IMG/VR virus record: IMGVR_UViG_3300025000_000056
Origin: a virus
Lineage: Duplodnaviria > Heunggongvirae > Uroviricota > Caudoviricetes
Reading direction: 5' to 3' (one strand)
Length of the DNA stretch: 64,000 nucleotides
The position numbers were made by a program, and so were the translations under genes. Position 1 is the stretch's first letter, and each line of letters begins with the position of its first letter. A model generated the notes under the pieces. It worked only from the letters and a program-made list of their open reading frames with translations, searched no databases and had not been told where the DNA came from. Of this stretch, positions 51,180-62,539 are shown piece after piece.

Positions 51180-51780
51180 ATTCCCCGCCTTACGGCTAAA
51201 CATAAGAAATCCATTTCATGCCTCGTCATAAATCCAGCCTATGGTCAAGCCTCAGAAATCCAAAACATCGGTGTCACGGCCCTAGGGAAAACAGAGCAAA
51301 TCTTGAGTGCTTTAAGTTAACTGCCTAGATTCGTAACACTGCCTAGCGCCAGCCATAGGCTGGCGCTATGACCAGCCCAAATAAGGCCCATTAGATTCAC
51401 AGTGTTTGTTATTGTTTAGTGATTGATTAGTATCCCGTAACAATGCTTTATAACTAGATTGCCGTATGATCAGTAGTATATGCCTTGTTTTGATGCTCTA
51501 GAGTCGCTGTAATTGCGCTCTTTCTCTAATTGCCCAGCCCCTGGAGAAGCCCAACGATAGCCTAAAGGGTAATAAACGGGTCATACGGTGTTACAAATAC
51601 ATGGTGAATTACCGTTACACATACGTACTCATACAAGCCCGCAGTCCAGAGCCCATACGGTGTGTAGGTATATCTAAGCTTCGCAAGATATACCTACACA
51701 CCTAACATTAATAGTCTATATGAGTAGATATTAGGTTCAGGGTATATACTAACTATATATTACATTATGTAATTAAGGAG
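51180..51780. other. 600-bp non-coding region with short direct repeats and hairpins (possible origin/regulatory hub)
   Basis: AAATCC x3, CTGCCTAG x2, CATACGGTGT x2; hairpins at 51344-51368 and 51659-51702. Confidence 0.4.
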
Positions 51781-51788
51781 GTGAATTA

Positions 51789-51962
51789 ATGGATCGTTAT
51801 TATTATAAGGATGGTCGTATCTATGATCGGTCTGAGATGTGTGGTACTGAGCATATCTGTATTGCTGCTAATGTTGAGAAGTGGCGTGCTAAGATCATTG
51901 TACGTGAAATGAATCAAGGATTACCTTATCGTCCTGATATTAGTTATAAGGAGCGTGATTAA
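51789..51962 (+). CDS. 57-aa protein (below track cut-off)
   Basis: AAGGAGGTGA RBS, MDRYYYKDGRIYDRSEMCGTEHICIAANVEKWRAK... Confidence 0.7.
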   Translation: MDRYYYKDGRIYDRSEMCGTEHICIAANVEKWRAKIIVREMNQGLPYRPDISYKERD

Positions 51963-51967
51963 TTACT

Positions 51968-52312
51968 ATGAAGGTTCGTAAGCCTAGAGGTACTAAGTTA
52001 GATGGTTATCGATCTGAAGATATGTGTAAGCATTGTTGTTCTTTAGGTTGTGATCCAATGTCTATGAGTCCTAAGTTTAAACAAATGGTTCGTTATCGTA
52101 GAGATAATAATCTATGTCAAGCTTGTGGTGCTAATCCCTGTATCTGTAAGTCTAGTTTAGAAACTAAACCTCAATTACCTATTTGTGATGTTTGTGGTGA
52201 ATACATCTTAGGACGTGCTCACTATATGTTTAAATGTTATAAGAACGGTGTTAAATATACTGACACCAGTATCTTAGTTCATACTAAATGTATTAATGAA
52301 GGGAGTGTTTAA
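51968..52312 (+). CDS. Cys-rich hypothetical protein
   Basis: 114 aa with CKHCCSLGC, CQAC..CIC and CDVC motifs. Confidence 0.75.
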   Translation: MKVRKPRGTKLDGYRSEDMCKHCCSLGCDPMSMSPKFKQMVRYRRDNNLCQACGANPCICKSSLETKPQLPICDVCGEYILGRAHYMFKCYKNGVKYTDTSILVHTKCINEGSV

Positions 52313-52315
52313 GTA

Positions 52316-52660
52316 ATGGATTTATATCTTATATGTCCTAAGTGTTATCATATCATTGGTGATTATGTTTTTAAGGGTCCTGATTTCTTCTATACTACTC
52401 ATACTTGTTCTAACTGTGGTACTGTTGATACGATTGCTAAGTTTGTTTGTCTAAAGCTTGAGCCTAGTTTATCTAAGTTCACTATTGGTTTAATGCTTGA
52501 TTCAGATGATGTTATGATGGTTAGTTCTATTGAAGCTACTAATATAACTCATGCTATTGAATTATATGCTACTCAGCACAATTGGAATAATGATCCTTTA
52601 TGGAATCCTAAGCAGAATACTTATCAAGGTAATTGTCTTGTTAGTATTACTATATTATAA
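52316..52660 (+). CDS. Zinc-ribbon hypothetical protein
   Basis: CPKC..CSNC at the N-terminus. Confidence 0.75.
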   Translation: MDLYLICPKCYHIIGDYVFKGPDFFYTTHTCSNCGTVDTIAKFVCLKLEPSLSKFTIGLMLDSDDVMMVSSIEATNITHAIELYATQHNWNNDPLWNPKQNTYQGNCLVSITIL

Positions 52661-52672
52661 GGAGCGTGAGTC

Positions 52673-52987
52673 ATGCTTATTTTATTTCAAGTATCTGCTG
52701 CTATTAGTTTTGGCATGTTAGTTCTTATACTCATGCCTAAGGCTTGGTCTGATTCATTAATGAAGAGATTAGGCTATCGTAAGATTATGTCTCCTATTCA
52801 TAAGAATTGTTATTCTTGTCAATGCCGTATTTGTGTTAGTGATTGTAAGTTAAAGCTTGATGTCGATAGCTATGGTGTCTGTCATTATTGTGAAGATCTA
52901 TTAGATAGCTATGACTCATTAAGTGAAGCTACTTTAGAAATGATTGGTGGTCAATGTAAGGGTTATAAGGGAGGTGATTCAAATTAA
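52673..52987 (+). CDS. Membrane-anchored Cys-rich protein
   Basis: N-terminal TM helix followed by CYSCQCRICVSDC..CHYC. Confidence 0.7.
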   Translation: MLILFQVSAAISFGMLVLILMPKAWSDSLMKRLGYRKIMSPIHKNCYSCQCRICVSDCKLKLDVDSYGVCHYCEDLLDSYDSLSEATLEMIGGQCKGYKGGDSN

Positions 52988-53261
52988 ATACTTTGATGAT
53001 GATCGTGGTTCATGGGGAGAACAAGCTTTGTTAATAGCTAATGTTACCTATGAAGAGAAGTGTGCCTTGATTAAGTTTATTTCTGCTATTGCTAGGAACT
53101 ATGCCTTTAATAGAGAGGCTAATTTACATTGTTTTTATAATGAGCCAAGTAGTTTATATGCCTTGGTTATTATCTCTGGTTTTAATGATATGCGTCAAGC
53201 CATTAAAGACTTTATTGATGGTTATAACCTAGAAGATATACTCATTGATGAGAATTACTAA
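52944..53261 (+). CDS. Hypothetical protein (possible ATT start at 52983)
   Basis: The strong GGAGGTG SD at 52970-52976 sits 6 nt before an in-frame ATT. Confidence 0.6.
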   Translation: MVVNVRVIREVIQIKYFDDDRGSWGEQALLIANVTYEEKCALIKFISAIARNYAFNREANLHCFYNEPSSLYALVIISGFNDMRQAIKDFIDGYNLEDILIDENY

Positions 53262-53272
53262 GAGGTGATTAA

Positions 53273-53521
53273 GTGCGTATCTATGTTGATTCTACTAAGC
53301 GTTCACTCATGATTAGTAATGTTTTTATAGATGAGCAATTGCTTTTTGAGAGGTGGCTCAAGCAGTCTAATGTCTCTAACTTCATGTTTGGTGTTGATTA
53401 TTACTTCTTTATTAATCCGGCAAATGACCGGCGTGCATTAGTTGTATTAACTAATGATCATGACTTTATTATGGCCATTATGTTATGGTGGGATCGTCAC
53501 GATAGAGAGGTGGGTTACTAA
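53273..53521 (+). CDS. Hypothetical protein
   Basis: 82 aa, GAGGTG RBS, GTG start. Confidence 0.7.
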   Translation: MRIYVDSTKRSLMISNVFIDEQLLFERWLKQSNVSNFMFGVDYYFFINPANDRRALVVLTNDHDFIMAIMLWWDRHDREVGY

Positions 53522-53703
53522 TGTTTGATCAGCGTATGAAATGTAATAACCAGGTAGATGACATTTGTCCTGTTGATTGTAATGAATGTAGTGAGTATAA
53601 CATTCCTTGCAATGGTGTGTGTTCTAAGTGCTTAGATTCTACTTGCGAGAATCATAGAGATTATTCAGAGTATGTTCAATTATCATTTGTATTGGAGGTG
53701 TAA
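53521..53703 (+). CDS. 60-aa Cys-rich protein
   Basis: 8 Cys: C..CPVDCNEC..CNGVCSKC..C. Confidence 0.7.
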   Translation: MFDQRMKCNNQVDDICPVDCNECSEYNIPCNGVCSKCLDSTCENHRDYSEYVQLSFVLEV

Positions 53704-53706
53704 TTC

Positions 53707-53802
53707 ATGACTTGGTGCCCTGGGTGTCTTAAATATCACTATGGCTTTACTATTGTTAAGCGTGGACTTTGTTGTTCTAAGTGTGGTCATATATTTAACT
53801 AA
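53707..53802 (+). CDS. 31-aa zinc-ribbon peptide (below track cut-off)
   Basis: GGAGGTG RBS, MTWCPGCLKYHYGFTIVKRGLCCSKCGHIFN. Confidence 0.6.
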   Translation: MTWCPGCLKYHYGFTIVKRGLCCSKCGHIFN

Positions 53803-53907
53803 ATAGGTGTCGAGCAAACCGACACCTAATGGCTCAGAGCCATTAGCCTATTATTCATGGCTTCAGTGAGATGTGCCATAAACATCTCACTATATTAAAT
53901 AAGGAGT

Positions 53908-55089
53908 GTGGGTTTAATGAGTAAATCACCTCGTGGTCAACAAATTCAATGTTCTAAACTAATCAAAGAATGGTTTCCTAAAGAAGATATTTTAGAGTTC
54001 GTATTAGCAGGTTGGGCCGGTACTGGTAAGAGCTTTATGATTGAACACATTATTGATGTGCTTAATTTAAATCCCGATTCTGGTGAGGTAATCTTTGCTA
54101 CATTCATGGGTAAGGCTAGTTTAGTTGTCACTCGTAAGGCTGGTGGTAAATATACCTGTTATACACTACACAAGACATTATATTATGCCAAGAAAGATCC
54201 TCGTAGTGGTAAAGTAACGTTTCACCCTAAAACAGCAGAACACTTTGTTGGTGTTAAATTAATCATCGTTGATGAGGCCAGTATGATTACTAAGGAATTA
54301 CTTAGAATTTTACGTACACTTAAGATTAAGATTTTATTCATCGGTGATCATGGTCAATTGCCACCTATTGGTGAGGCAGACCGTGAAATGTACAATAGAC
54401 TTAAGTATCGTCCAGATTTTGTACTCACTGAAATACAACGCCAGGCTGAAGGTAATCCTATTATTGCATTAGCAACACAGATACGAAATGATGAGAAGAT
54501 TAACATTGGTAAGTATGGTGAAGGTGTATTAATTATACCTAAGTCACAAATCATGAAGTATTCTTCAAGTTTAATTAATGCTGATCAAGTATTATGTGGT
54601 TTAAATGCAACGCGACATAGATATAATGGTAATATTCGTGATTTACTTGGTATTAAGAGTCAAGATCCGGTGAACGGAGATAAACTAATTTGTCTCAGAA
54701 ATAACTGGAATCGTGGTATTGAAGATTATGCCTTGGTCAATGGTATGGTTGGTTTTATTGATAATGTTAAATCAATTAATAAGTATTTCAACTATGACTT
54801 CAGACCTGATTTTCTTAACGATCATGTCAATGTTTATTCTATGCAAGAAGAGATTCACGGTAAGTATGTTGATTATCAATCACTTACTAGACAAGAAAAA
54901 GATATGCTTGATAGTTTTAATTATGGATACGCCATAACGACTCATAAAGCTCAAGGTTCAGAGTGGGATAAGGTATTTGGCATTAATGAGACATTCAAAG
55001 GTAATGAGGCTGGTATACACGGATATAATAAAGAATGGTTATACACTTTATGCACGAGGCCTGCAGAAAAACTCATACTCGCAGTTTAG
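53908..55089 (+). CDS. Dda/RecD-like SF1B helicase
   Basis: GWAGTGKS Walker A, IIVDEASM, FIGDHGQLPPI, LTEIQRQA, GDKLICLRN, YGYAITTHKAQGSEW, LYTLCTRP. Confidence 0.92.
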   Translation: MGLMSKSPRGQQIQCSKLIKEWFPKEDILEFVLAGWAGTGKSFMIEHIIDVLNLNPDSGEVIFATFMGKASLVVTRKAGGKYTCYTLHKTLYYAKKDPRSGKVTFHPKTAEHFVGVKLIIVDEASMITKELLRILRTLKIKILFIGDHGQLPPIGEADREMYNRLKYRPDFVLTEIQRQAEGNPIIALATQIRNDEKINIGKYGEGVLIIPKSQIMKYSSSLINADQVLCGLNATRHRYNGNIRDLLGIKSQDPVNGDKLICLRNNWNRGIEDYALVNGMVGFIDNVKSINKYFNYDFRPDFLNDHVNVYSMQEEIHGKYVDYQSLTRQEKDMLDSFNYGYAITTHKAQGSEWDKVFGINETFKGNEAGIHGYNKEWLYTLCTRPAEKLILAV

Positions 55090-55097
55090 TACTCATC

Positions 55098-55136
55098 GTA
55101 CATACAATGCGTTTCTTTTAAACGCATTGTATGTAC
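55098..55136 (+). other. 17-bp stem-loop before RBS
   Basis: GTACATACAATGCGTTT-CTTTT-AAACGCATTGTATGTAC; no downstream U-tract. Confidence 0.8.
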
Positions 55137-55155
55137 TAATATAAGAGGTGAATTT

Positions 55156-55413
55156 ATGATTTATATTGATCGTTCTGGTATTAAATATATCTTTGGTAAT
55201 CTAACTTATACTGATGTTGATAAACTTTATTATCATATTATTCATGGTTTTAGTATGTGGACAATTGGTGAGATTAGTTATTTCGATGGCCCTAATAGCC
55301 GTGCAATGATGGTGTTTAATATTATTTTTCATAAAATCGAACATGAAGAAGACTTCATTACTTGGTGTTCAGATGTTTTAGGTCAAAAGGTTTATGGAAG
55401 GGAGGAACGTTAA
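55156..55413 (+). CDS. Hypothetical protein
   Basis: 85 aa, GAGGTGA RBS. Confidence 0.7.
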   Translation: MIYIDRSGIKYIFGNLTYTDVDKLYYHIIHGFSMWTIGEISYFDGPNSRAMMVFNIIFHKIEHEEDFITWCSDVLGQKVYGREER

Positions 55414-55803
55414 GTGGCAATTTATTATGCACACTCACTACTTAAGTATGATTCTACTGAAGAATGTATTGAACTCACATTAATTCATGGATGGAAGCAT
55501 TGGTGGAATCGAGTTTATAATCCTAATAATGATACACTTCAGGCTATTGGTAAAGTCTCTGGACAAGAGTGTATGGAAGAATGTTATCGCATTATCCGTA
55601 GTAAACAAATTCATTGTTTAGTCTTTAGTGCTTATAAGGGACATGTTGGTCGTGGTGTTTATGAAGAAATATCAGTAGCTCGCCAATGTGGTAAGGACGT
55701 TTATATTATTGAAGATCGTTGTATTAAACGCTTTGATATGCGTCGTCTTGAATTACTCGAGATTGATTGGAAGATCAAGTATGCCTTAATTAAGAAAGGA
55801 TGA
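55414..55803 (+). CDS. Nucleoside 2-deoxyribosyltransferase/nucleotide hydrolase-like (NDT-fold) protein
   Basis: IYYAHS..VYNPN..CLVFS....VGRGVYEEISVARQCGKDVYII, resembling the NDT/YtoQ G.G...E...A....KPV motif. Confidence 0.55.
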   Translation: MAIYYAHSLLKYDSTEECIELTLIHGWKHWWNRVYNPNNDTLQAIGKVSGQECMEECYRIIRSKQIHCLVFSAYKGHVGRGVYEEISVARQCGKDVYIIEDRCIKRFDMRRLELLEIDWKIKYALIKKG

Positions 55804-56726
55804 TTAATATGCAGATCATTAGTAAGTCCTTACTTGATATTAAAGAAGGTCTTATTGTTCATCAAGTCAACAACAGAGGGGTCATGAGAAGTGGTATTGC
55901 GAAAGACATTCGTGAGGCTTACCCTAAAGCTTATGAGCTCTATATGAAGAGACATCTAAGAAATTTATTAGATATGGGTACCGTCTTTGGTCATTGGGAG
56001 ATTCAAAATAAGTTCTTTGTTGCTAATTTAATTGGTCAAGATGGATATGGTCGTGACGGTAAGCAATACACCAGTTATGAGGCTTTACAAAAGGGTTTTA
56101 TTGAACTTGATAAGTTTGCTCATAATAATAACTTACAAGTTTATATACCTTTTAAAATGGGCTGTGGCCTTGGTGGTGGTGATTGGACTATTGTTAGTCA
56201 TTTAATCGATACGATTATACCAGATGCTATTGTCTGCAAACTCAATAAAGCTATGCCGGTTGATCGCAATCGTTACAATGTCTTAGTTTTATCTGGTCAG
56301 AAAAAGATCTTAGAATGCTCTAGTAAGGGTGATAAACGATTCTCTGCTTTTTATGCACGAGTTAAGGCCTTTGGTATCATGGCTTCAATCGAAGATCACT
56401 ATCAATTGGTTAAGAGATTTCCTGAAGTGCCTCACACATGTCGTGATGCCAAGGGTAAAAAGCCTACTCACATTTGTATTAATAGCCATGACTTACATGC
56501 TGATTATTTAAGTGAGTGGTATGCAAGTTTATGGATTAAGTATTTAGATGAGCATCCTGAACTTGTTAAGTATGCTCAAGAGTTTGATGACTTTCATGAT
56601 ATGTTTCGTGGTAAGTCGGTGAATTGTCAAGCTGATATGATTCGAATTTATGTTAAAGAGGGTAGATCAGCCTTGATTAAACAATGCTCTAGATTATGGA
56701 CTATTATGAGAAATTGGAGGGATTAA
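55800..56726 (+). CDS. Macrodomain (Poa1p-like) fused to a second, putatively NADAR-like domain
   Basis: N-domain SLLD..LIVHQVN..GVMRSGIAKDIREAYP..NLIGQ..YG..YIPFKMGCGLGGGDW; C-domain ILECSSKGDKRFSAFYA..SIEDHYQ..KGK..DDFHDMF..NCQADMI (NADAR-like call is inference). Confidence 0.75.
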   Translation: MINMQIISKSLLDIKEGLIVHQVNNRGVMRSGIAKDIREAYPKAYELYMKRHLRNLLDMGTVFGHWEIQNKFFVANLIGQDGYGRDGKQYTSYEALQKGFIELDKFAHNNNLQVYIPFKMGCGLGGGDWTIVSHLIDTIIPDAIVCKLNKAMPVDRNRYNVLVLSGQKKILECSSKGDKRFSAFYARVKAFGIMASIEDHYQLVKRFPEVPHTCRDAKGKKPTHICINSHDLHADYLSEWYASLWIKYLDEHPELVKYAQEFDDFHDMFRGKSVNCQADMIRIYVKEGRSALIKQCSRLWTIMRNWRD

Positions 56727-56727
56727 G

Positions 56728-57465
56728 ATGGTAAAATTCGGTATTACTGAAAGAGGCGACGCTGGTCTTGATACGAGTTGGGTTCGTAAATTAAGTACGG
56801 TTGATGGTGCCATAATTATTACCAAGGATGCCAGTCAAATTATTGATGAGCTAGTTTTGTATCAGAGGAAACTCATACTTCACTTAACATGTACTGGTTA
56901 TGGTAGTACGATTGTTGAACCGAATGTACCTAACGTTAATGAAACATTAATAACGTATCATCGTTTAATAGAAGCTGGTTTTCCCGTAAAACAAGTTGTA
57001 CTCAGATTAGACCCTATTATACCGACCAAGAAGGGTATTGCTCGTGCTTCTGATGTATTAACTCGCTTTGCACTTGATACATCGAGTAATACTATGATTA
57101 CTCGTGTTAGATATTCTTTCCTAGATATGTATCCACACGTTCGTTCTCGATTTGAACTTGCTGGCTTACCTGATCCTTATTCTGGTTCATTTACTGCATC
57201 AACTTATATGCAAGAACAAGCTATAAGAATGATTAATCTATGGCGTGGTCATTATGAGTTTGAATCTTGTGCTGAAGATACACCCGATAAGCAGGGTTGT
57301 ATTAGTCAACTTGACTATAATATTCTTGGTATCAATGCAGAAGCCTTTGGTAAATCCATTCAGCGATCAAATTGTTTATGTGCCGCCAGTAAAACAGAGT
57401 TATTAGATAATAGAGATCAATGTTTTCATGGTTGCCAATATTGTTACTGGAAAGGAGCTAGATAA
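56728..57465 (+). CDS. DUF1848-like (radical-SAM/SPL-related) protein
   Basis: IIITK..LHLTCTGYG..VEPNVP..VVLRLDPII..SFLDMY..ESCAE..GCI..QRSNCLC..CFHGCQYCYW. Confidence 0.75.
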   Translation: MVKFGITERGDAGLDTSWVRKLSTVDGAIIITKDASQIIDELVLYQRKLILHLTCTGYGSTIVEPNVPNVNETLITYHRLIEAGFPVKQVVLRLDPIIPTKKGIARASDVLTRFALDTSSNTMITRVRYSFLDMYPHVRSRFELAGLPDPYSGSFTASTYMQEQAIRMINLWRGHYEFESCAEDTPDKQGCISQLDYNILGINAEAFGKSIQRSNCLCAASKTELLDNRDQCFHGCQYCYWKGAR

Positions 57466-57526
57466 ATGATTGTTCAGACTCATGAACTGCATTTAACTAA
57501 ATTACTCAGAGTATTAATAGAATGGA

Positions 57527-57937
57527 GTGAAGATCAAGATGTCAATCAAGAAGGGAATACTCAAGATCAGTTCGATTCAAGGGTGTCAGCCTAGTTGTGA
57601 TATTAACTTATTTATTGTGAGATCCTGCAAATCCGTACCTAAGGGATTTACACATATCCCTGGCTTGGCTCCAAGTTCAGAACTGTTCTACAAATACTGG
57701 GATTGGAAGAAGCATAATCAATGGCCTAGTAAATGGCCTGAGTATGTTAATGCCTTTGTCGAAGAAATGAAACAACCCGAGATGGCGAAACTTATCAGGC
57801 TGATTAAGGAACGCCTAGATCAAGGTAAATCCGTTCAGCTTACGTGTTTTTGTCCAGATGAATTATATTGTCATCGTAGTCTTATTGCTGAACTATTTGA
57901 ACATTGGGGTTATATAATCGAAAGGATGGTAGCTTAA
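57527..57937 (+). CDS. DUF488-family protein
   Basis: GLAPSSELF..WPEYVNAFVEEM..VQLTCFC.DE..CHRSLIAE. ATG 57539 is the likely start. Confidence 0.75.
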   Translation: MKIKMSIKKGILKISSIQGCQPSCDINLFIVRSCKSVPKGFTHIPGLAPSSELFYKYWDWKKHNQWPSKWPEYVNAFVEEMKQPEMAKLIRLIKERLDQGKSVQLTCFCPDELYCHRSLIAELFEHWGYIIERMVA

Positions 57938-58489
57938 ATGGCAAATCAAGTGAAGATTGTAGCATTCACAGGACACAGACCAACGGCAGAAGGTATGGGT
58001 GGCTATGGAGATACTCCTGGTAATAAGGCACTCTTTGAAAAGCTTTATAGTGTTTGTAAGGCTGCTTATGAACATAATGGCACCCGTGAATTTATTACGG
58101 GTATGGCATTAGGTACTGACAGTATTGCTGCATCCGCAGTGTTATATCTTAAGCTTAAATATCCTGATATCAAACTCGTAGCTGCAGTACCATTTAAAAA
58201 TCAGGATTGCAAATGGCCTAAACATTCACGAGATGCTTATCATAACCTACTATCTCAGTGTGATGAAATAGTTTATGTTGATGAGATATTAGGCTATCGA
58301 CTCGGTAATCCCGGTCAGTACAGCGCGGCTAAAATGCAAAAGCGCAATGAGTATATGGTTGATCGAGCAGAAGGAATCATTGGAGTCTATAATGGAGCGG
58401 AAAAGGGTGGCACATACAATTGTATTTATTACGCTGAGTCAATCGGTAAACCAGTCTATATTATCGATCCAACCAAACTTAAGTTTTAA
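57938..58489 (+). CDS. SLOG-superfamily YspA/DUF1273-like protein
   Basis: VAFTGHRP..FITGMALGTD..AAVPF..QD.KW..MQKRNEYMVD..YNG..KGGTYNCIYYA. Confidence 0.85.
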   Translation: MANQVKIVAFTGHRPTAEGMGGYGDTPGNKALFEKLYSVCKAAYEHNGTREFITGMALGTDSIAASAVLYLKLKYPDIKLVAAVPFKNQDCKWPKHSRDAYHNLLSQCDEIVYVDEILGYRLGNPGQYSAAKMQKRNEYMVDRAEGIIGVYNGAEKGGTYNCIYYAESIGKPVYIIDPTKLKF

Positions 58490-58512
58490 TTGTTAGTCAA
58501 ATCTCATACTTT

Positions 58513-58558
58513 ATATTAAATAACCATTCCTTGCTTTGCAGGAATGGTTATTTAATAT
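58513..58558 (+). other. 18-bp stem-loop with TTGCTTTGCA apex before RBS
   Basis: ATATTAAATAACCATTCC-TTGCTTTGCA-GGAATGGTTATTTAATAT. Confidence 0.8.
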
Positions 58559-58587
58559 TAGATTAGAATAAGAAAGGTGTGTTGTAA

Positions 58588-59544
58588 ATGGATATGCTTA
58601 AACTTAAAGTACAACTGGTCAAGATTGAGGCTTTATTTCCTGAGGGATTTGAGTTCACGAGCAAAGATGGCAATAAGGCTGTCGTTACTAAGGTCTATTC
58701 TGAGCTCAAAGGTAACATCTTACGTCCAATGTATGAAGTTAAAGTTGGGAGTAAGACTCATTCGAATATCAAAGAGTCCTTTATCTACACTTATGCTTCA
58801 CCTAAGATTGCCAATAAGACCTTATTGGCTACTATGTTAGTAGGAACTAAATATAACAAGACTGAAGTTAAGATTCAGTGGTCAGACAAAATGGCTGGGC
58901 CTTATGCTATTATTCCAGGTGCCTTTGATGCATCAGGCAAGCGTTGGGTTAACTTAATCAACTGGTATGATACAGCAGGTACTAATGTTACACGTTGGAT
59001 TCAAGCAGGTTTAGTCAGGCTTTATGCAGGTATTACAAGTATGAACTTAGCTAAGCGCGGCACTCCAACTCAATATATTGATAGCGAATGTACACTGGCT
59101 ACATCCTGTTTTAATTGCCAATGCGTCAGGATGTTAAAAGGCTCTGACACGTACGAGGGTGACTCAGATGCCGACATAGCATCGAAGGGTACCACTCGTA
59201 TGGGTATTGAAGGTATCTATGATGAGACGTTCGTGTGTGCCCTGAATGGTAGTTGTCCAGCATCCGGTGATATTCATGCCGCTAACATGGAATGTACTCG
59301 TGGTAATGAACATGAGGCTGCCCGAATGTATAAAGAGGCACCTATTGGTACGGCATTGAATTGTGCTAGTTATACCTTCAAGGGTAATAAAGAAGTCAAT
59401 GCTAAACAAAGTATGGGTTGGTTAGTTAATCCAGGTAATCTACGCTTTGATCATCAAGAGGCCAAAGAGGCCACCGATGATAAGCCGGCCGTTATTGAGT
59501 CTTATCTCGTTAAAACAGCAGGCTACCACATTATCTTAATCTAA
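58588..59544 (+). CDS. Hypothetical protein with Cys-rich C-domain
   Basis: 318 aa; SH3-like beta N-terminus; CFNCQC..CALNGSC..C..CAS. Confidence 0.8.
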   Translation: MDMLKLKVQLVKIEALFPEGFEFTSKDGNKAVVTKVYSELKGNILRPMYEVKVGSKTHSNIKESFIYTYASPKIANKTLLATMLVGTKYNKTEVKIQWSDKMAGPYAIIPGAFDASGKRWVNLINWYDTAGTNVTRWIQAGLVRLYAGITSMNLAKRGTPTQYIDSECTLATSCFNCQCVRMLKGSDTYEGDSDADIASKGTTRMGIEGIYDETFVCALNGSCPASGDIHAANMECTRGNEHEAARMYKEAPIGTALNCASYTFKGNKEVNAKQSMGWLVNPGNLRFDHQEAKEATDDKPAVIESYLVKTAGYHIILI

Positions 59545-59562
59545 CTCAATTGTTCGTCGTTC

Positions 59563-59592
59563 AACCCCTTCCTTGCTTTGCAGGAAGGGGTT
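59563..59592 (+). other. Stem-loop with the same TTGCTTTGCA apex
   Basis: AACCCCTTCC-TTGCTTTGCA-GGAAGGGGTT. Confidence 0.8.
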
Positions 59593-59614
59593 TCACTATA
59601 AATTAATTTAAGGA

Positions 59615-61378
59615 GTGTTGATTATGACAATTATTCAAAACTACATCAATTCCCAATTACCTAAAACCAAGAAGGCTCGTAAACACATGAGCCCAGCCGA
59701 TGAAGGCAACTTGGTTAGTCAGATCATTTCCCGTATGTACAGTGAACTACCATTTATTAGTCAAGAAGAGCTGGACCGTACTCGTGAAGACTTCTTTAAG
59801 TACTCTAATAAGAGTGTTACGGACTATTCCATGAGTTCCGTGGTTCATCCTCATGAAGTTGAAAGAGTTCGTGAACCCTTCGAAGATATCTTAGCTACAC
59901 ATACTAAATATGGCAATGTCACAGTTAAGGGTGTTGATCGCATCGAGGATAATCAAGTTATCGTTAAGATCATATTTAGTGTTAAGAAAAGCGATAGTGA
60001 TAAATATCGAATTGTTATGAAATTCGTACCACTTGCTGAGCTTTATATCTCATTACCAGATCGCGATATATCTGGTGAAACGGTTCAAAGTCTGTTCTTA
60101 GAGTCGGCCGAAGAAGATGCTAAAGTTGAAGTCGAAACCACCAACTTAGCTTGGCACAAGCGAGGGCTCGTTGAAATCATTGGTGAATCTCATGATCGTA
60201 ATGGTACACTAACTTATTTAGTTGAGCCGGTCAATGAAGATGGCGAATCAAATGCTCCTAAGTTTGACCTTGGTGTTGAAGAGATGGGATCTATGGATGA
60301 TCATTGTCTCAGCCACGGTCGTTCATTCGAAGTTTATGAATGTGAACTCACGCCGTATGAGTTCTATGAAGTCCCTAAGACAGCTAAATTATGTCAACCT
60401 TATACAAAGGGAGCGACTGATGATCGGTCGAATACCCTGGACGAATATGTGTGGGTCACCAAGTTTATGCCTCGTAAACCAATCCTTGATTCTAATGGCG
60501 ATCAAGTTGTTAATACTGCTCGTACTAGATCAGGTAGCGTGATCTTAGCTAAAGCAGATCAACCTGTTAAACGTAAATGGTTTAGCCAAGGTGAATGGAA
60601 AATTATTGATAGCATCGAACGTACTATTCCCGTCAAATCAGCTCGTGGTGTCACATATGTTAAGAAAGCTTGCGTAGCACAACCTGCTTATGAAGCACCT
60701 ATGGTTGAAGCTATTGGAGAAAATACAGGTCGTAAGTATATTACTAAAGCTTTCTGGTTACTTGATATTGAGACTGGCGATAAGCTAAAATGGTTTAATC
60801 CAGAGACTAATAAGAACAAAGTGTTAGACGTATCAGAGCCTACTGAACTTAGTGATTACTATGATGAGTTTAACTATGATCCGGATATCACAGGTGATTA
60901 TCAAAGTGATGCTGTTTCTTCGGTTGAAGTACAAATTCATGAGTCTGTACCGCTTGAAGGATATGTTGATACTATTGACAGTATCACAACAACCGGTAGA
61001 GTGCTTAATGCCAAAGAACAAGCTAAATTTAATAAAGAGCTTAAGGCTCGAGATCTTGACGACATATTCAAATATATTAACACTGAAGCAGGATATTGGA
61101 AGGTTCCAAAAATTAGTTCACGTAGCCTGGGTATTACTCAATTAAAGATTAACTTTATTCAAGGCGCTAAGGTTGGTGTTGGTCTTAAACTTGCGGACGT
61201 TAGCTTTTATAAGCCCGACAAGAAAAAGACTTTCTCACTTGAAGTTTATGTATCAGATACTATCATGGGTGAACTTGATATTCGTGCTAAGTTCCCTTTG
61301 AATGATAATGTTAGGATTTTCTTTGCTCAACAAGTAAGCTATGACTTTGGTAAGGTTCGTATCGCTAAAGCCAAGTAA
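59615..61378 (+). CDS. Large hypothetical early protein
   Basis: 587 aa, AAGGAG RBS; no family recognised. Confidence 0.8.
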   Translation: MLIMTIIQNYINSQLPKTKKARKHMSPADEGNLVSQIISRMYSELPFISQEELDRTREDFFKYSNKSVTDYSMSSVVHPHEVERVREPFEDILATHTKYGNVTVKGVDRIEDNQVIVKIIFSVKKSDSDKYRIVMKFVPLAELYISLPDRDISGETVQSLFLESAEEDAKVEVETTNLAWHKRGLVEIIGESHDRNGTLTYLVEPVNEDGESNAPKFDLGVEEMGSMDDHCLSHGRSFEVYECELTPYEFYEVPKTAKLCQPYTKGATDDRSNTLDEYVWVTKFMPRKPILDSNGDQVVNTARTRSGSVILAKADQPVKRKWFSQGEWKIIDSIERTIPVKSARGVTYVKKACVAQPAYEAPMVEAIGENTGRKYITKAFWLLDIETGDKLKWFNPETNKNKVLDVSEPTELSDYYDEFNYDPDITGDYQSDAVSSVEVQIHESVPLEGYVDTIDSITTTGRVLNAKEQAKFNKELKARDLDDIFKYINTEAGYWKVPKISSRSLGITQLKINFIQGAKVGVGLKLADVSFYKPDKKKTFSLEVYVSDTIMGELDIRAKFPLNDNVRIFFAQQVSYDFGKVRIAKAK

Positions 61379-61383
61379 ATATT

Positions 61384-61422
61384 AAGTATCCCCTCTCTCT
61401 CCTTTCAGGAGAGGGGATACTT
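61384..61422 (+). other. 14-bp stem-loop before RBS
   Basis: AAGTATCCCCTCTC..GAGAGGGGATACTT. Confidence 0.8.
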
Positions 61423-61447
61423 ACACAATAGAATTGGAGGATTAAAC

Positions 61448-61738
61448 ATGAAACATAGACTTACTCGTATGGAGCGGCGCGCTCGTGTTGTTATGACTGC
61501 TCGTGATCTTGCTGTTAAACTTGGAGGATCGGGTATAATTGATCCTAGTGTTATGTTATTTCCTACGGCTAAACATTCTAGTCCTGAGGGCGATATACTC
61601 TATGATGAGAGTTCATTTGATACACATTCTGTTTATGTTAGTCCAGGATCAGGTAAGATCGTTGGCATTATGAGTGGTAAAGTCTATCCATCAATGCCTA
61701 CAGTCATTGATGCTGCAGAGTATTTCTTAACTAAGTAA
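61448..61738 (+). CDS. Hypothetical protein
   Basis: 96 aa, GGAGG RBS. Confidence 0.7.
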   Translation: MKHRLTRMERRARVVMTARDLAVKLGGSGIIDPSVMLFPTAKHSSPEGDILYDESSFDTHSVYVSPGSGKIVGIMSGKVYPSMPTVIDAAEYFLTK

Positions 61739-61742
61739 CTTG

Positions 61743-61779
61743 TTTCTTTGCCCTGTCTCGAAGAGACAGGGCAAAGAAA
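61743..61779 (+). other. 17-bp stem-loop (GAA loop) before RBS
   Basis: TTTCTTTGCCCTGTCTC-GAA-GAGACAGGGCAAAGAAA; the A-run gives a U-tract only on the minus strand. Confidence 0.8.
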
Positions 61780-61793
61780 ACTAAATATAGGAG

Positions 61794-62078
61794 TTGATAT
61801 CAGTGAAAGCCATTATAGAGCAAATTATGTTTAGGTTAACGGTTAATGCTGATAAAGAAGATCTTATTGACCTTCGATGTTTACTTAATCCTACGTGTTT
61901 AAATTGTCCTGATGTTGTTAAAAACTATCGTGGTTGTGGATGTGATCCTAAGTTTAAAGAAGGATCTGCTTTACGTATTGTTAATTTAACGAATATGATT
62001 GACGTTGCATTGGGAGTTGTTCCACCTAGAGTTGAAGGTATCTCGTCAGACAAATGTGAACCGCATTCTTTAATTTAA
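61794..62078 (+). CDS. Hypothetical Cys-containing protein
   Basis: 94 aa; CLNC..CGC. Confidence 0.6.
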   Translation: MISVKAIIEQIMFRLTVNADKEDLIDLRCLLNPTCLNCPDVVKNYRGCGCDPKFKEGSALRIVNLTNMIDVALGVVPPRVEGISSDKCEPHSLI

Positions 62079-62089
62079 GGAGGAATTCC

Positions 62090-62266
62090 ATGGGAACATA
62101 TGATTATTGTGATTGTCATACTCATTGGTGTTACTATGATTTTATCCAGGTGTTTAACATTTCGATTGATCTGTTTGCTAAATGGGTTATTGCTCCGTTT
62201 TTGAAAGTCATGCCTAAGCGTAAGCAACGCAATACATGGGTTGAGCTAACATGGCATGATCCATAG
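62090..62266 (+). CDS. 58-aa protein (below track cut-off)
   Basis: AAGGAGG RBS, MGTYDYCDCHTHWCYYDFIQVFNISIDLFAKW... Confidence 0.6.
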   Translation: MGTYDYCDCHTHWCYYDFIQVFNISIDLFAKWVIAPFLKVMPKRKQRNTWVELTWHDP

Positions 62267-62295
62267 TTGACAACTTAATTATTAGATTGTATACT
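62267..62295 (+). promoter_or_regulatory. Consensus SigA/sigma70 promoter
   Basis: TTGACA-17 bp-TATACT. Confidence 0.85.
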
Positions 62296-62317
62296 CACTA
62301 AGTTATCCTCATAATAT

Positions 62318-62365
62318 AAAGGGGAGCGTAGCCTATCTTGTCATAGGCTACGCTCCCCTTTTTTT
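62318..62365 (+). terminator. Rho-independent terminator
   Basis: AAAGGGGAGCGTAGCCTAT-CTTGTC-ATAGGCTACGCTCCCC followed by T7. Confidence 0.9.
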
Positions 62366-62539
62366 GATCACCGGTTATTCCGAGTGCTTGCGATGTGGCT
62401 TTTGCTTATAGTTTGGAATATAATTTGTCCAAACTATAAGCTAGACCCACACCTTAATTGGCTTAGTATAGTTTGCATTACAAAGTGTAATACTATATTA
62501 GGCTATTCTTTTACGAATTAACCTCAAAGGAGGTAATAT

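What the first reader, a model, noticed from the sequence alone, without database searches (positions are those of the whole stretch)
55414..58489. Compact nucleotide/ADP-ribose counter-defence or repair operon
Seen: five abutting genes (NDT-fold, macrodomain fusion, DUF1848, DUF488, SLOG/YspA) sit between two hairpins together with one small hypothetical ORF, just after a Dda-like helicase. A PRTase-fold gene lies at 63651. Established: macro and NADAR domains remove ADP-ribose; SLOG proteins bind nucleotides and co-occur with NAD-processing and TIR/sirtuin systems; NDT folds cleave N-glycosidic bonds; DUF1848 has SPL-like radical-SAM Cys motifs. Inference: a pathway that reverses defence-induced DNA or nucleotide modification or destroys nucleotide signals. 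The two DUF proteins would be its uncharacterised steps.
Basis: partly seen in the sequence, partly recalled or inferred. Interest (0 to 1): 0.75.

Follow-up and report, generated by a model that had tools for sequence, protein, structure and literature searches.

The report
Phage ADP-ribose clean-up operon
An uncultured jumbo phage carries one early operon holding almost every enzyme type thought to strip or digest ADP-ribose marks, plus an unstudied radical-SAM enzyme (DUF1848) that turns out to be fused or adjacent to the same partners in other phages, bacteria and archaea, so the set is probably one anti-defence toolkit whose chemistry is still untested.

Summary
Between two perfect hairpins (55098-55136, 58513-58558), just after a Dda-like helicase, lie six tightly packed + strand genes:
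- an orphan 85-aa ORF;
- a 129-aa protein with a nucleoside-deoxyribosyltransferase fold;
- a Macro-NADAR fusion;
- DUF1848;
- DUF488-N3a;
- a YpsA SLOG protein.

The Macro half is of the DarG/SCO6735 class and keeps that class's catalytic Asn, Gln and Gly. The NADAR half is of the DarT1-antitoxin type and keeps Glu, Lys and Asp. DUF1848 models as a radical-SAM-like barrel with its CX3CX2C loop moved to the C-terminus and four further invariant cysteines.

The genes do co-occur elsewhere:
- NADAR-DUF1848 and DUF488-DUF1848 fusions exist.
- DUF488 sits directly after DUF1848 in other phages.
- DUF1848, Macro-SLOG and DUF488 lie together in Methanoperedens archaea.
- This NADAR subfamily is fused to Macro, DUF488, DUF4326, SLOG, Nudix and nucleases.

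Most homologues nevertheless stand alone.

The Macro/NADAR/SLOG/DUF4326 theme was published as a prediction (Iyer et al. 2022), and phage NADAR and Macro anti-DarT proteins have been shown experimentally. The recruitment of DUF1848 and of the NDT-like family appears new. No activity has been tested. The scan's other notes on this stretch are first-reader notes only.

The parts
53908..55089 (+). Dda-like SF1 helicase (context; upstream neighbour)
   Evidence: phrog_325 at 4.9e-83; Pfam AAA_30, AAA_19 and UvrD_C_2. Related helicases sit 2-3 kb upstream of DUF1848 in L001, of Macro-NADAR in L019, and of NADAR followed by DUF488 in L124.
55098..55136 (+). Perfect hairpin (17-bp stem, 5-nt loop, no U-run) at the left edge of the block
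55156..55413 (+). orf85, an orphan small protein and first gene of the block
   Evidence: AGAGGTG ribosome-binding site upstream. No hit in Pfam, PHROGs, NCBIfam, PADLOC or the phage collection.
55414..55803 (+). 129-aa protein with a nucleoside 2'-deoxyribosyltransferase-like (TIR/DrHyd/SLOG-class Rossmannoid) fold; member of a small uncharacterised family
   Evidence: 178 relatives; invariant P37, G81 and E85. Six of 63 members give weak PF05014 hits. The family profile's top PDB hit is NDT 7m5h, with E85 on its catalytic Glu. AF2 model pLDDT 94.8; the top seven VIA matches are NDTs, Z 8.9-8.0, rmsd about 3 A, 97-106 residues aligned. Two members are fused to an RNase_T exonuclease.
55800..56279 (+). 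Macro domain (ALC1-like / DarG / SCO6735 class), N-terminal half of the 308-aa fusion
   Evidence: PDB 2afc 5.6e-9, SCO6735 (5e3b) 3e-6, DarG macro (5m31, 5m3i). NCBIfam DarG 4e-12 and PADLOC DarG 2e-14, macro half only. phrog_335 at 1.5e-37. Keeps the equivalents of SCO6735 Asn27, Gln85 and Gly128.
56289..56726 (+). NADAR domain of the DarT1-antitoxin type, C-terminal half of the fusion
   Evidence: PF22397 at 25.7 bits; the same protein carries PF22397 in the precomputed table. Subfamily profile A3 hits only G. lovleyi DarT1-NADAR 8bat, at 1.8e-9. Glu, Lys at +7 and Asp in FxDxF are conserved; these correspond to E88, K95 and D171 of E. coli C7 NADAR.
56728..57465 (+). DUF1848, short form: radical-SAM-like barrel with a C-terminal CX3CX2C and four further invariant Cys
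   Evidence: PF08902 at 3.3e-21. Seven invariant Cys in 36 homologues: C181, C191, C216, C218, C232, C236 and C239. AF2 model pLDDT 93. VIA top match is SPL 4fhc (Z 9.6, rmsd 3.0, 177 aligned), followed by more than 15 radical-SAM enzymes within 1.5 Z. PADLOC RTasDUF1848 at 1e-13.
57466..57538 (+). Only real intergenic spacer of the block; holds a 42-aa ORF (57466-57594) and a GGAG ribosome-binding site
   Evidence: no evidence that the 42-aa ORF is a gene
57539..57937 (+). DUF488-N3a (rhodanese-phosphatase superfamily), active form with a Cys...Cys-His-Arg motif; alternative GTG start at 57527
   Evidence: PF22751 at 3.4e-20. Invariant C103, C111, H112 and R113 across 12 homologues. PADLOC PDC-M45C and PDC-M19A. 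SPO1 gp21.2 is a relative.
57938..58489 (+). YpsA-type SLOG protein
   Evidence: PF06908 at 8.4e-20. B. subtilis YpsA 2nx2 at 6.6e-11 over residues 5-177. Relatives in 300 phage records; the best are SPbeta and phi3T at 44% identity.
58513..58558 (+). Perfect hairpin (19-bp stem, 8-nt loop, no U-run) at the right edge of the block

Best explanation
The six genes form one early transcription unit that encodes a multi-enzyme kit against host ADP-ribose-based defence. It most likely acts on ADP-ribosylated nucleic acid.

Step 1 is inferred from homology and catalytic-residue conservation, with experimental precedent in other phages. The fused protein carries two erasers:
- The SCO6735/DarG-class Macro domain removes ADP-ribose from thymine.
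- The DarT1-antitoxin-type NADAR domain removes ADP-ribose from guanine.
Together they would neutralise both DarT2-type and DarT1-type toxins on phage single-stranded DNA near the replication helicase.

Step 2 is inferred from gene fusions and neighbourhoods only. The other four enzymes would deal with what the erasers cannot finish:
- DUF488-N3a, a cysteine phosphatase-like enzyme, works as a pair with DUF1848, a permuted radical-SAM-like enzyme with a probable second Fe-S cluster, on a phosphorylated ribosyl remnant or a nucleic-acid end.
- The YpsA SLOG protein and the NDT-fold protein belong to N-glycosidase or nucleotide-binding classes. They would bind or cleave ribosyl-base bonds in remnants or in released ADP-ribose derivatives.

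The parts are modular. Other elements carry subsets, so each enzyme probably has value on its own.
For: Operon.
- The genes abut or overlap, and this is the only hairpin-free run in a region where nearly every other intergenic gap has a hairpin.

Macro domain.
- Its closest solved relatives are BT1257 and SCO6735, and the DarG macro models hit it.
- SCO6735 cleaves thymidine-linked ADP-ribose on DNA, and its essential Asn27, Gln85 and Gly128 (PMC9411070) align with identical residues here.

NADAR domain.
- The subfamily profile hits only the G. lovleyi DarT1-NADAR.
- The Glu, Lys and Asp shown to be needed in E. coli C7 NADAR (PMC11543638) are conserved.

Precedents.
- T4 AdfN is a NADAR that neutralises DarTG1 (PMC11825919).
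- A chimallivirus DarG2-like protein acts as an anti-defence protein (PMC13309987, abstract).

Functional linkage.
- Among 114 homologues of the fusion protein, the NADAR domain is fused to Macro (33), DUF488-N3a (7), SLOG (7), and also DUF4326, Nudix, RNase H, RNase_T and a 5'-3' exonuclease.
- P0107/L004 is a NADAR-DUF1848 fusion, with Macro and a SLOG-DUF488-N3a fusion within 2.5 kb.
- L066 and L201 are DUF488-N3a-DUF1848 fusions. In L040 and L062, DUF488-N3a follows DUF1848 directly, as it does here.
- Methanoperedens loci L216, L217 and L219 combine DUF1848, Macro-SLOG or YpsA, and DUF488.
- Among 68 dereplicated DUF1848 clusters, 9 have DUF488 within 3.5 kb, 8 have Macro and 5 have SLOG.
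- In a Pfam tally of 122 flanking ORFs, the most frequent families are DUF488-N3a, DUF488, dUTPase, Macro and YAcAr. Three of the five DUF488-N3a ORFs in that tally were added by hand.

Nucleic-acid context.
- The NADAR subfamily and the orf129 family are both fused to nucleases.
- SF1 helicases lie next to the module in the window, L019, L124, SPO1 (gp21.1-gp21.2-SbcD) and Methanoperedens plasmids.

Complex prediction for DUF1848 with DUF488.
- The verdict was weak support: score 0.36 against a best control of 0.01.
- That mark was reached by 58 of 80 solved complexes and 2 of 110 mismatched pairs. At 0.60 or under, however, it was reached by only 7 of those 80 solved complexes and by both of the mismatches that passed.
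- The runs agree in at least 83% of contacts, and partner pLDDT is at least 85.
Against: - No enzyme was assayed, and the host and its defences are unknown.
- 53 of 68 dereplicated DUF1848 clusters and 64 of 81 DUF488 loci show none of the partners nearby.
- The nearest relatives of this phage keep only DUF1848 (L001) or only Macro-NADAR plus SLOG (L019) in the same slot. The genes are therefore not obligately co-dependent.
- The published analysis of this network (PMC9503650, section 3.7.4) favours soluble ADP-ribose derivatives over macromolecular adducts for the phage Macro, NADAR and SLOG domains.
- RtcB and RlaP (RNA repair) also recur near DUF1848.
- No role can be derived for a radical-SAM enzyme in ADP-ribose removal from known chemistry.
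- My HMMs for SLOG and DUF488 were built from few sequences, and no matched random-gene control was run.
Confidence: 0.45

Rival explanations
1. The module is the same, but its substrates are soluble. The enzymes degrade low-molecular-weight NAD-derived immune signals or toxins, such as cyclic ADP-ribose isomers from TIR/Thoeris-type systems, ADPr-1''-phosphate or ADPr>p. Labour is divided by bond type: SLOG and the NDT-fold protein cut N-glycosidic bonds, Macro and NADAR cut ribose linkages, and DUF488 removes terminal phosphates.
For: This is the published prediction for viral SLOG, Macro, NADAR and DUF4326 neighbourhoods and fusions (PMC9503650, sections 3.4.3-3.4.4 and 3.7.4). The YpsA clade includes cADPR-sensing SLOG domains. 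The orf129 model also resembles TIR domains and nucleotide N-glycosidases such as DNPH1, BcmB and MilB. The NADAR subfamily is fused to Nudix.
Against: Both eraser domains belong to the subclasses with proven DNA-base de-ADP-ribosylase activity and keep the residues for it. Fusions to RNase H, RNase_T and a 5'-3' exonuclease, and the helicase neighbourhood, point to nucleic acid. A radical-SAM enzyme whose best structural match is a DNA repair enzyme fits a small-molecule scavenger poorly.
Confidence: 0.22
2. The module serves RNA repair or reverses RNA ADP-ribosylation. It would clean RNA ends or bases damaged by host anticodon nucleases or RNA-targeting ADP-ribosyltransferases, and dispose of the ADP-ribose by-products of 2'-phosphate removal.
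For: NADARs reverse guanosine ADP-ribosylation on RNA, and Macro-type hydrolases reverse phosphate-end RNA ADP-ribosylation (PMC11833690). RtcB and RlaP each occur twice among 122 ORFs flanking DUF1848, and RlaP plus a KTI12/AAA_33 kinase-like gene lie 5 kb from DUF1848 in L005. L004 has a SpoU RNA-methylase-type gene inside the module. Phage Macro relatives are often annotated as Appr-1''-p processing proteins.
Against: No RNA ligase, Tpt1/KptA, 2H or polynucleotide kinase was found among the ORFs scanned between 48.7 and 64 kb of the window. The helicase, SbcCD and replication context in the window, SPO1 and the archaeal plasmids is a DNA context.
Confidence: 0.12
3. The genes are adjacent by chance or by history. 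They would be independent accessory genes gathered in a hypervariable early-gene slot downstream of the helicase, each acting alone on unrelated targets. The DUF1848-DUF488 pair might serve the phage's own nucleic-acid modification.
For: Most homologues of every family stand alone. Related phages fill the same slot with different subsets. An earlier follow-up in this genome found a neighbouring 'cassette' to be unrelated neighbours (not rechecked here). DUF488-N3a occurs in SPO1-like and SP-15-like phages, which have modified DNA (the modified-DNA point is my own knowledge).
Against: Independent fusions (NADAR-DUF1848, DUF488-DUF1848 twice, SLOG-DUF488, NADAR with Macro, DUF488 or SLOG) and the recurrence of three or four of the families together in Methanoperedens are hard to explain without a shared function.
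Confidence: 0.15

Closest known systems
Viral ADP-ribose-processing neighbourhoods and fusions of YpsA-like SLOG, Macro, NADAR and the DUF4326 clade (Iyer, Burroughs, Anantharaman and Aravind 2022, Viruses 14:1977, PMC9503650; a prediction, not tested)
   Same: The same four domain classes are present, in an early-gene position, in a large phage. Tandem Macro+NADAR proteins are described there. SLOG followed by NADAR is also seen here in SP-15, LIS04 and KLEB27-3.
   Different: This operon uses DUF488-N3a, a sister of DUF4326 in the same clade. It adds DUF1848 and an NDT-fold family, neither of which that paper mentions (no occurrence of 'radical SAM'; the DUF1848 search did not list it). The domain order Macro then NADAR is the rarer one: 3 cases against 30 among homologues.
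T4 AdfN (gp30.3), a phage NADAR that neutralises DarTG1 by removing ADP-ribose from guanine in DNA (PMC11825919; PMC11125620)
   Same: An orphan NADAR in a phage, with the catalytic Glu and the Lys seven residues later conserved.
   Different: The window's domain is of the DarT1-associated (BC4488, Asp) type, not the phage gp30.3 (His) type. It is also fused to a Macro domain.
DarG and SCO6735 (ALC1-like macrodomain thymidine-ADP-ribose hydrolases; PMC9411070) and the chimallivirus DarG2-like anti-defence protein (PMC13309987)
   Same: The same macrodomain class. SCO6735-type catalytic Asn, Gln and Gly are present, and the TARG1/DarG Lys is absent, as in SCO6735.
   Different: There is no DarT-binding C-terminal domain and no adjacent DarT toxin; a NADAR domain sits in that place. 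Sequence scores are far below the DarG equivalog cut-off (46 bits against 250).
Spore photoproduct lyase and the radical-SAM superfamily
   Same: The DUF1848 model superposes on the SPL barrel (Z 9.6, rmsd 3.0 A, 177 residues). It has a CX3CX(aromatic)C motif, and JGI annotators call relatives 'DNA repair photolyase'.
   Different: The cysteine loop is at the C-terminus, and the match covers only the part of SPL after its own cluster loop, so DUF1848 looks circularly permuted. Four further invariant Cys are present. SPL is tied within 1.5 Z with more than 15 other radical-SAM enzymes, so no specific kinship to SPL is shown.
DUF1848 accessory protein of UG25 defence-associated reverse transcriptases (PMC9226505; PADLOC RTasDUF1848)
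   Same: The same Pfam family (PADLOC hit 9.8e-14).
   Different: That protein belongs to a host defence system and is paired with a methylase-RT. The one here is in a phage, paired with DUF488, NADAR, Macro and SLOG.
[quoted passage not shown]
   Same: DUF488-N3a is a Pfam model from that classification. The abstract, as I recall it, predicts action on sugar phosphates of NAD derivatives and on nucleic-acid ends in conflict systems.
   Different: I could not check whether that paper already links DUF488-N3 to DUF1848. If it does, the DUF1848 link is not new.

Membership tests
ALC1-like macrodomain hydrolases (DarG / TARG1 / SCO6735) | Macro fold with sequence similarity to class members | tested here: met
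   PDB 2afc 5.6e-9, 5e3b (SCO6735) 3.2e-6, 5m31 7e-4, 5m3i 2.5e-3. DarG models 4.3e-12 and 2.3e-14 over the macro half. Pfam Macro scores 20.5 bits, just under the cut-off of 22.
ALC1-like macrodomain hydrolases (DarG / TARG1 / SCO6735) | Catalytic residues: SCO6735 Asn27, Gln85 and Gly128, or the DarG/TARG1 Lys | tested here: met
   In the HMMER alignment to 5e3b, Asn, the Gln of ANxIGQ and the Gly of GCGLxGG are identical. The Lys type is absent, as in SCO6735 (PMC9411070).
DarG antitoxin (type II TA) | C-terminal DarT-binding domain and an adjacent darT gene | tested here: not met
   The C-terminal half is NADAR. No ART-like gene was detected among the operon's genes or the neighbouring ORFs scanned. 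The NCBIfam score of 46 is far below the equivalog cut-off of 250.
NADAR, DarT1-associated (BC4488) type (PF22397) | Profile match to the family | tested here: met
   The single sequence scores 25.7 bits against a cut-off of 27. The same protein is listed with PF22397 in the precomputed table. Subfamily profile A3 hits G. lovleyi DarT1-NADAR 8bat at 1.8e-9 over positions 4-129 and hits no other PDB chain.
NADAR, DarT1-associated (BC4488) type (PF22397) | Catalytic Glu, Lys (+7) and the subfamily-specific Asp (E88, K95 and D171 in E. coli C7 NADAR) | tested here: met
   Glu and Lys are invariant and Asp is at least 90% conserved in 30 subfamily members. They align to SVESAFQSSK and FTDIEF of 8bat.
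NADAR, DarT1-associated (BC4488) type (PF22397) | Operon partner DarT1 | tested here: not met
   No toxin gene lies in or beside the operon. It is an orphan, as with T4 AdfN.
DUF1848 (PF08902) | Pfam profile above the gathering score | tested here: met
   76.7 bits against 30.5, matching profile positions 46-261 of 262. The first 45 positions are absent in this short form.
Radical-SAM superfamily | CX3CX2C cluster motif with an aromatic residue before the last Cys | tested here: met
   C232-x3-C236-x-Y-C239 is invariant in 36 homologues, but it lies at the C-terminus and not near the N-terminus.
Radical-SAM superfamily | Partial TIM-barrel core fold | tested here: met
   AF2 pLDDT 93. VIA-align matches: SPL Z 9.6, PFL-AE 9.5, NifB 9.4, SuiB 9.4, SkfB 9.3, Cfr 8.5, viperin 8.3, BioB 8.3. 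Foldseek matches to RlmN and PFL-AE have probability 0.99-1.0 but TM of only 0.39-0.43.
Radical-SAM superfamily | Binds a [4Fe-4S] cluster and cleaves SAM | not testable with these tools
   Needs anaerobic reconstitution and a 5'-deoxyadenosine assay.
Spore photoproduct lyase | Specific kinship to SPL beyond the shared superfamily fold | tested here: inconclusive
   SPL ranks first but is tied within 1.5 Z with many radical-SAM families, at 8% identity. There is no sequence hit to any PDB chain.
DUF488-N3a (PF22751) | Profile above the gathering score and an intact Cys...Cys-His-Arg active-site motif | tested here: met
   72.9 bits against 27. C103, C111, H112 and R113 are invariant in 12 homologues.
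YpsA SLOG family (PF06908) | Profile above the gathering score and full-length similarity to B. subtilis YpsA | tested here: met
   71.9 bits against 27.7. 2nx2 at 6.6e-11, residues 5-177 against 2-168.
Nucleoside 2'-deoxyribosyltransferase (PF05014) | Pfam profile match | tested here: not met
   The window protein has no Pfam hit. Only 6 of 63 family members hit PF05014, all below the cut-off (best 1.4e-4, 22 bits against 28.8). It is filed as NDT-fold, not as an NDT.
Nucleoside 2'-deoxyribosyltransferase (PF05014) | Fold, and a Glu at the catalytic position after the central strand | tested here: met
   The top seven VIA matches are NDTs (7m5h Z 8.9, rmsd 3.0, 99 aligned). The invariant E85 aligns with the Glu of GVASE in 7m5h. 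ThsB TIR follows at Z 7.9, so the class (TIR/DrHyd/SLOG) is firmer than the family.
Viral ADP-ribose-processing network (PMC9503650) | SLOG, Macro, NADAR and a DUF488/DUF4326-clade domain combined in one neighbourhood or protein | tested here: met
   All four lie within 2.7 kb in the window. The same combinations occur as fusions and neighbours elsewhere.

The most novel reading that the evidence does not exclude
DUF1848 and DUF488-N3a together form a previously unrecognised two-enzyme nucleic-acid repair or editing machine: a circularly permuted, two-cluster radical-SAM enzyme working with a cysteine phosphatase-like partner. Phages and archaeal and bacterial mobile elements would use it, alongside Macro, NADAR and SLOG erasers, to remove ADP-ribose-derived or other base or end adducts that hydrolases cannot clear. 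That would be a new radical-based DNA repair chemistry in the phage-host arms race.
Probability: 0.15. Interest if true: 0.85.

Novelty: new variant of a known kind. Interest (0 to 1): 0.55.

Why it matters
DNA and RNA ADP-ribosylation by DarT-type and other toxins is a recently recognised layer of anti-phage immunity. So far only single phage erasers have been tested: T4 AdfN and a chimallivirus DarG2-like protein.

This operon offers three things:
- A natural fusion of both eraser types in one protein, which would be a broad-spectrum anti-DarT factor.
- The fullest single-locus assembly of the predicted viral ADP-ribose-processing network. Its proposed division of labour can therefore be tested with one small construct.
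- A concrete context for two families of unknown function. The DUF1848-DUF488 link by fusion and adjacency gives a starting substrate class (ADP-ribose-derived adducts on nucleic acid) for an uncharacterised, permuted radical-SAM enzyme that also serves a host defence system (UG25).

Tried and rejected
- DNA-level search of the phage collection found only three short hits inside two genes, so no close relative exists among isolated phages.
- No whole genome is held for the window, so the rest of the phage could not be searched for DarT-like, NAD-salvage or RNA-repair genes.
- tblastn of DUF1848, orf129 and orf85 against 50,697 phage records found nothing.
- Single-sequence PDB searches for orf129 and DUF1848 gave only chance-level hits. 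A profile of DUF488-N3a found no solved relative.
- The single-protein IMG/VR scan for the Macro-NADAR fusion found no relative. The scan with the window-like DUF488 subgroup found only two weak loci. Alignment A4 was too diverse to scan with.
- The 'longer' search for fused DUF488-N3a proteins returned nothing. The tool itself calls this weak evidence, and fusions were found by other routes.
- Foldseek against the PDB was uninformative for both models (TM 0.5 or less). VIA-align was needed.
- The 'PRTase-fold' ORF at 63651 has no Pfam, PHROG or PDB support.
- Ten further ORFs between 48.7 and 63.7 kb gave no informative Pfam domain, only one weak zinc-ribbon hit below its cut-off.
- Burroughs and Aravind 2023 could not be read by DOI, PubMed id or PMC id.
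- Literature searches for DUF488+NADAR, DUF488-N3 and radical SAM+NADAR gave nothing relevant. A YpsA/YAcAr search mostly returned papers on caimans.
- I considered a toxin-antitoxin reading, with the erasers as antitoxins to an operon-encoded ART. I rejected it because no ART-like gene was detected in or beside the operon.
- I considered the hairpins as Rho-independent terminators. I rejected this because they lack U-runs and occur in almost every intergenic gap, so they look like processing or stability elements.

Full report
**1. What is in the sequence**

The region lies in the rightward early-gene arm of what earlier notes of this scan call a roughly 220-kb uncultured groundwater jumbo phage (unchecked). 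No whole genome is held for it.

After a Dda-like SF1 helicase (53908-55089; phrog_325 at 5e-83) comes a perfect 17-bp hairpin (55098-55136). Six + strand ORFs follow:
- orf85 (55156-55413);
- orf129 (55414-55803);
- a 308-aa fusion (55800-56726);
- DUF1848 (56728-57465);
- DUF488-N3a (57539-57937, or 57527 with a GTG start);
- YpsA (57938-58489).

A perfect 19-bp hairpin (58513-58558) closes the block. Junctions abut or overlap by up to 4 nt. The one exception is a 61-73 nt spacer before DUF488.

The hairpins lack U-runs. Similar hairpins occupy almost every intergenic gap between 51.6 and 62.5 kb, and none lies inside the block. I therefore read the block as one transcription or processing unit, and the hairpins as a regional feature, not as terminators. 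Ten other ORFs in the early region gave no informative Pfam domain, only one weak zinc-ribbon hit below its cut-off. The cluster is an island of recognisable enzymes among orphan genes.

**2. Identity of each gene**

*Macro half.* The solved relatives are BT1257 (2afc, 5.6e-9), SCO6735 (5e3b, 3e-6) and the DarG macrodomains. The DarG models of NCBIfam and PADLOC match only this half. SCO6735 removes thymidine-linked ADP-ribose from DNA and needs Asn27, Gln85 and Gly128, while lacking the DarG/TARG1 lysine (PMC9411070). The HMMER alignment shows the same Asn, the Gln of ANxIGQ and the Gly of GCGLxGG in the phage protein.

*NADAR half.* The single sequence is just under Pfam's cut-off for PF22397 (25.7 bits against 27). 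A profile of 30 subfamily members hits exactly one PDB chain, the DarT1-associated NADAR of G. lovleyi (1.8e-9). The subfamily conserves Glu, Lys seven residues later, and the Asp of FxDxF. These correspond to E88, K95 and D171 of E. coli C7 NADAR, which are needed for guanine de-ADP-ribosylation.

*DUF1848.* It scores 76.7 bits but lacks the first 45 profile positions. Thirty-six homologues share seven invariant cysteines: a CX3CX(Y)C triplet at the extreme C-terminus and four more. The AF2 model (pLDDT 93) superposes best on spore photoproduct lyase (Z 9.6, rmsd 3.0 A, 177 residues). Radical-SAM enzymes dominate the rest of the top of the list (PFL-AE, NifB, SuiB, SkfB, Cfr, viperin, BioB and others). 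The match covers only the part of SPL that follows SPL's own cluster loop, so the cluster loop appears circularly permuted to the C-terminus. Kinship to SPL specifically is not shown.

*DUF488-N3a.* It scores 72.9 bits and keeps the Cys...Cys-His-Arg motif.

*YpsA.* It matches B. subtilis YpsA (2nx2) end to end.

*orf129.* It has no Pfam hit. It belongs to a family of 178 mostly 110-140-aa proteins with invariant P37, G81 and E85. A few members touch PF05014 or DUF4406 weakly. The family profile's top PDB hit is the NDT 7m5h, with E85 on its catalytic Glu. The AF2 model (pLDDT 94.8) has deoxyribosyltransferases as its top seven structural matches (Z 8.9-8.0), then ThsB TIR. 'NDT fold' is therefore right as a fold call, but the protein is not a member of the Pfam family.

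*orf85* has no relative anywhere I looked. The 'PRTase-fold' ORF at 63651 could not be supported.

**3. Do the genes belong together?**

Three lines of evidence say they do, at least in part.

*(a) Fusions.*
- Among 114 homologues of the fusion protein, the NADAR domain is joined to Macro in 33 (30 in the order NADAR-Macro, 3 in the window's order), to DUF488-N3a in 7 and to YpsA or YAcAr SLOG in 7. It is also joined to DUF4326, Nudix, RNase H, RNase_T and a 5'-3' exonuclease.
- P0107 is a NADAR (PF08719, 94.5 bits) plus DUF1848 (75.8 bits) fusion.
- L066 (IMG/VR) and L201 (an Endomicrobiaceae MAG) are DUF488-N3a plus DUF1848 fusions.
- L004 carries a SLOG plus DUF488-N3a fusion.
- Two orf129 relatives are fused to RNase_T.

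*(b) Adjacency.*
- DUF488-N3a follows DUF1848 directly in L040 and L062, as in the window.
- L004 packs NADAR-DUF1848, a SpoU methylase, Macro and SLOG-DUF488 into 3.6 kb.
- L023 has a DUF488-N3a-NADAR fusion, then a DUF4406 (NDT-like) gene, then RNase H.
- L019 has a helicase, then a Macro-NADAR fusion of the window's architecture, then an abutting SLOG.
- L124 has a helicase, then NADAR, then DUF488.
- SP-15, LIS04 and KLEB27-3 have SLOG followed by NADAR.

*(c) Independent lineages.*
- Methanoperedens loci combine DUF1848 with YpsA and DUF488 (L216), or with a Macro-SLOG fusion and DUF488 (L217, L219). Methanocorpusculum has DUF1848 followed by DUF488 (L203).
- Published Methanoperedens plasmids list YAcAr, YpsA, DUF488 and an SF1 helicase as consecutive ORFs 17-20 (PMC9674854).

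*Counts and limits.* After dereplication, 143 DUF1848 loci form 68 clusters at 80% identity.
- Fifteen clusters have a partner within 3.5 kb: DUF488 in 9 (3 fused or touching), Macro in 8 and SLOG in 5.
- The other 53 clusters have none.
- From the DUF488 side, 64 of 81 loci show no partner.
- A Pfam tally of 122 ORFs flanking DUF1848 in cellular genomes puts DUF488-N3a, DUF488, dUTPase, Macro and YAcAr on top. Three of the five DUF488-N3a ORFs were added by hand after my HMM scan.
- I ran no matched random-anchor control. The neighbourhood frequencies for Macro and SLOG alone could be near chance in large phages.

The weight of the argument therefore rests on the fusions, the touching DUF1848-DUF488 pairs and the archaeal recurrence.

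A complex prediction for DUF1848 with DUF488 gave weak support. The score was 0.36 against a best control of 0.01. That mark was reached by 58 of 80 solved complexes and 2 of 110 mismatched pairs. At 0.60 or under, it was reached by only 7 of those 80 and by both of the mismatches that passed. The runs agree in at least 83% of contacts, and partner pLDDT is at least 85.

**4. How it most likely works**

*Supported by homology and published experiments on relatives.* The fusion protein is a double eraser, with a thymine-ADPr hydrolase (Macro) and a guanine-ADPr hydrolase (NADAR). Phage NADAR AdfN defeats DarTG1 (PMC11825919). A chimallivirus DarG2-like protein provides anti-defence (PMC13309987, abstract).

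*Inferred.* The remaining enzymes extend the kit.
- The DUF1848-DUF488 pair would act on a phosphorylated ribosyl remnant or a nucleic-acid end.
- YpsA and the NDT-fold protein would bind or cut ribosyl-base bonds.

I favour nucleic acid as the substrate for three reasons: the eraser subclasses, the nuclease fusions, and the repeated helicase and recombination context in the window, L019, L124, SPO1 gp21.1-gp21.2-SbcD and the archaeal plasmids. The published analysis instead favours soluble ADP-ribose derivatives for phage Macro, NADAR and SLOG (PMC9503650). RNA repair is a further option (RtcB and RlaP near DUF1848; NADAR acts on RNA guanosine). I cannot derive from known chemistry what a radical-SAM enzyme would do here.

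**5. Comparison with what is known, and novelty**

The Macro, NADAR, SLOG and DUF4326-clade theme, including tandem Macro+NADAR proteins, is published as a computational prediction (PMC9503650). The DUF488/DUF4326 clade was defined by the same group in 2023; I could not read that paper.

The window's operon is the fullest single-locus version I found. It adds two components that I did not find linked to this network in the searchable literature:
- DUF1848, known otherwise only as an accessory gene of UG25 defence reverse transcriptases (PMC9226505);
- the orf129 NDT-fold family.

I rate it a new variant of a known kind.

**6. Verdict**

Interest is moderate to fairly high (0.55). The operon gives a compact, directly testable construct for a predicted network and a first handle on two domains of unknown function. 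The central idea is not new, however, and the mechanism beyond the two erasers is speculative.

Noticed in passing
window 51659-62451: Perfect or near-perfect hairpins without U-runs sit in nearly every intergenic gap of the early region: 51659, 53826, 53865, 55098, 58513, 59563, 61383, 61743, 62311 and 62394. They look like RNA processing or stability elements, not terminators.
   Followed up: partly
window 57466-57594: A 42-aa ORF starts at the stop codon of DUF1848, fills the only spacer of the operon and overlaps the DUF488 start. There is no evidence that it is translated.
   Followed up: no
P0270 (relative of orf129): One orf129-family protein carries a 25-residue patch, 44% identical to the DUF488 active-site stretch, with the Cys-x-Cys...Cys-His-Arg motif. 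It may be a chimera of the two folds or a convergence.
   Followed up: partly
L010 5272-6723; L011 1984-3435: Two DUF1848 paralogues lie in tandem in a 58-kb phage-like contig, next to a Thy1 thymidylate synthase and an ABC transporter.
   Followed up: no
L004 2952-3464: A SpoU-type methyltransferase sits between the NADAR-DUF1848 fusion and the Macro gene. This hints at an RNA or 2'-O-ribose link.
   Followed up: no
L016 3971-4429 (Listeria phage LIS04, OQ999172.1 about 24277-24735): A NADAR ORF directly after the annotated YspA gene is not annotated in the GenBank record.
   Followed up: partly
L015 4818-5363 (Bacillus phage SPO1 gp21.2): SPO1 gp21.2, of unknown function, is a DUF488-N3a protein. 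It lies between the helicase gp21.1 and the SbcD-type nuclease gp21.3, and it is conserved in 17 SPO1-like phage records.
   Followed up: partly
L217 5511-6632; L219 5440-6387 (Methanoperedens MAGs): Macro-SLOG fusion proteins lie next to DUF488 and within 1.3 kb of DUF1848 in archaeal contigs. dUTPase is also a recurrent neighbour of DUF1848 in cellular genomes (3 of 122 flanking ORFs).
   Followed up: partly
window 58588-61378: The two large genes just downstream (318 aa and 587 aa) have no hit in Pfam, PHROGs, NCBIfam or PADLOC. The 318-aa protein is Cys-rich.
   Followed up: no
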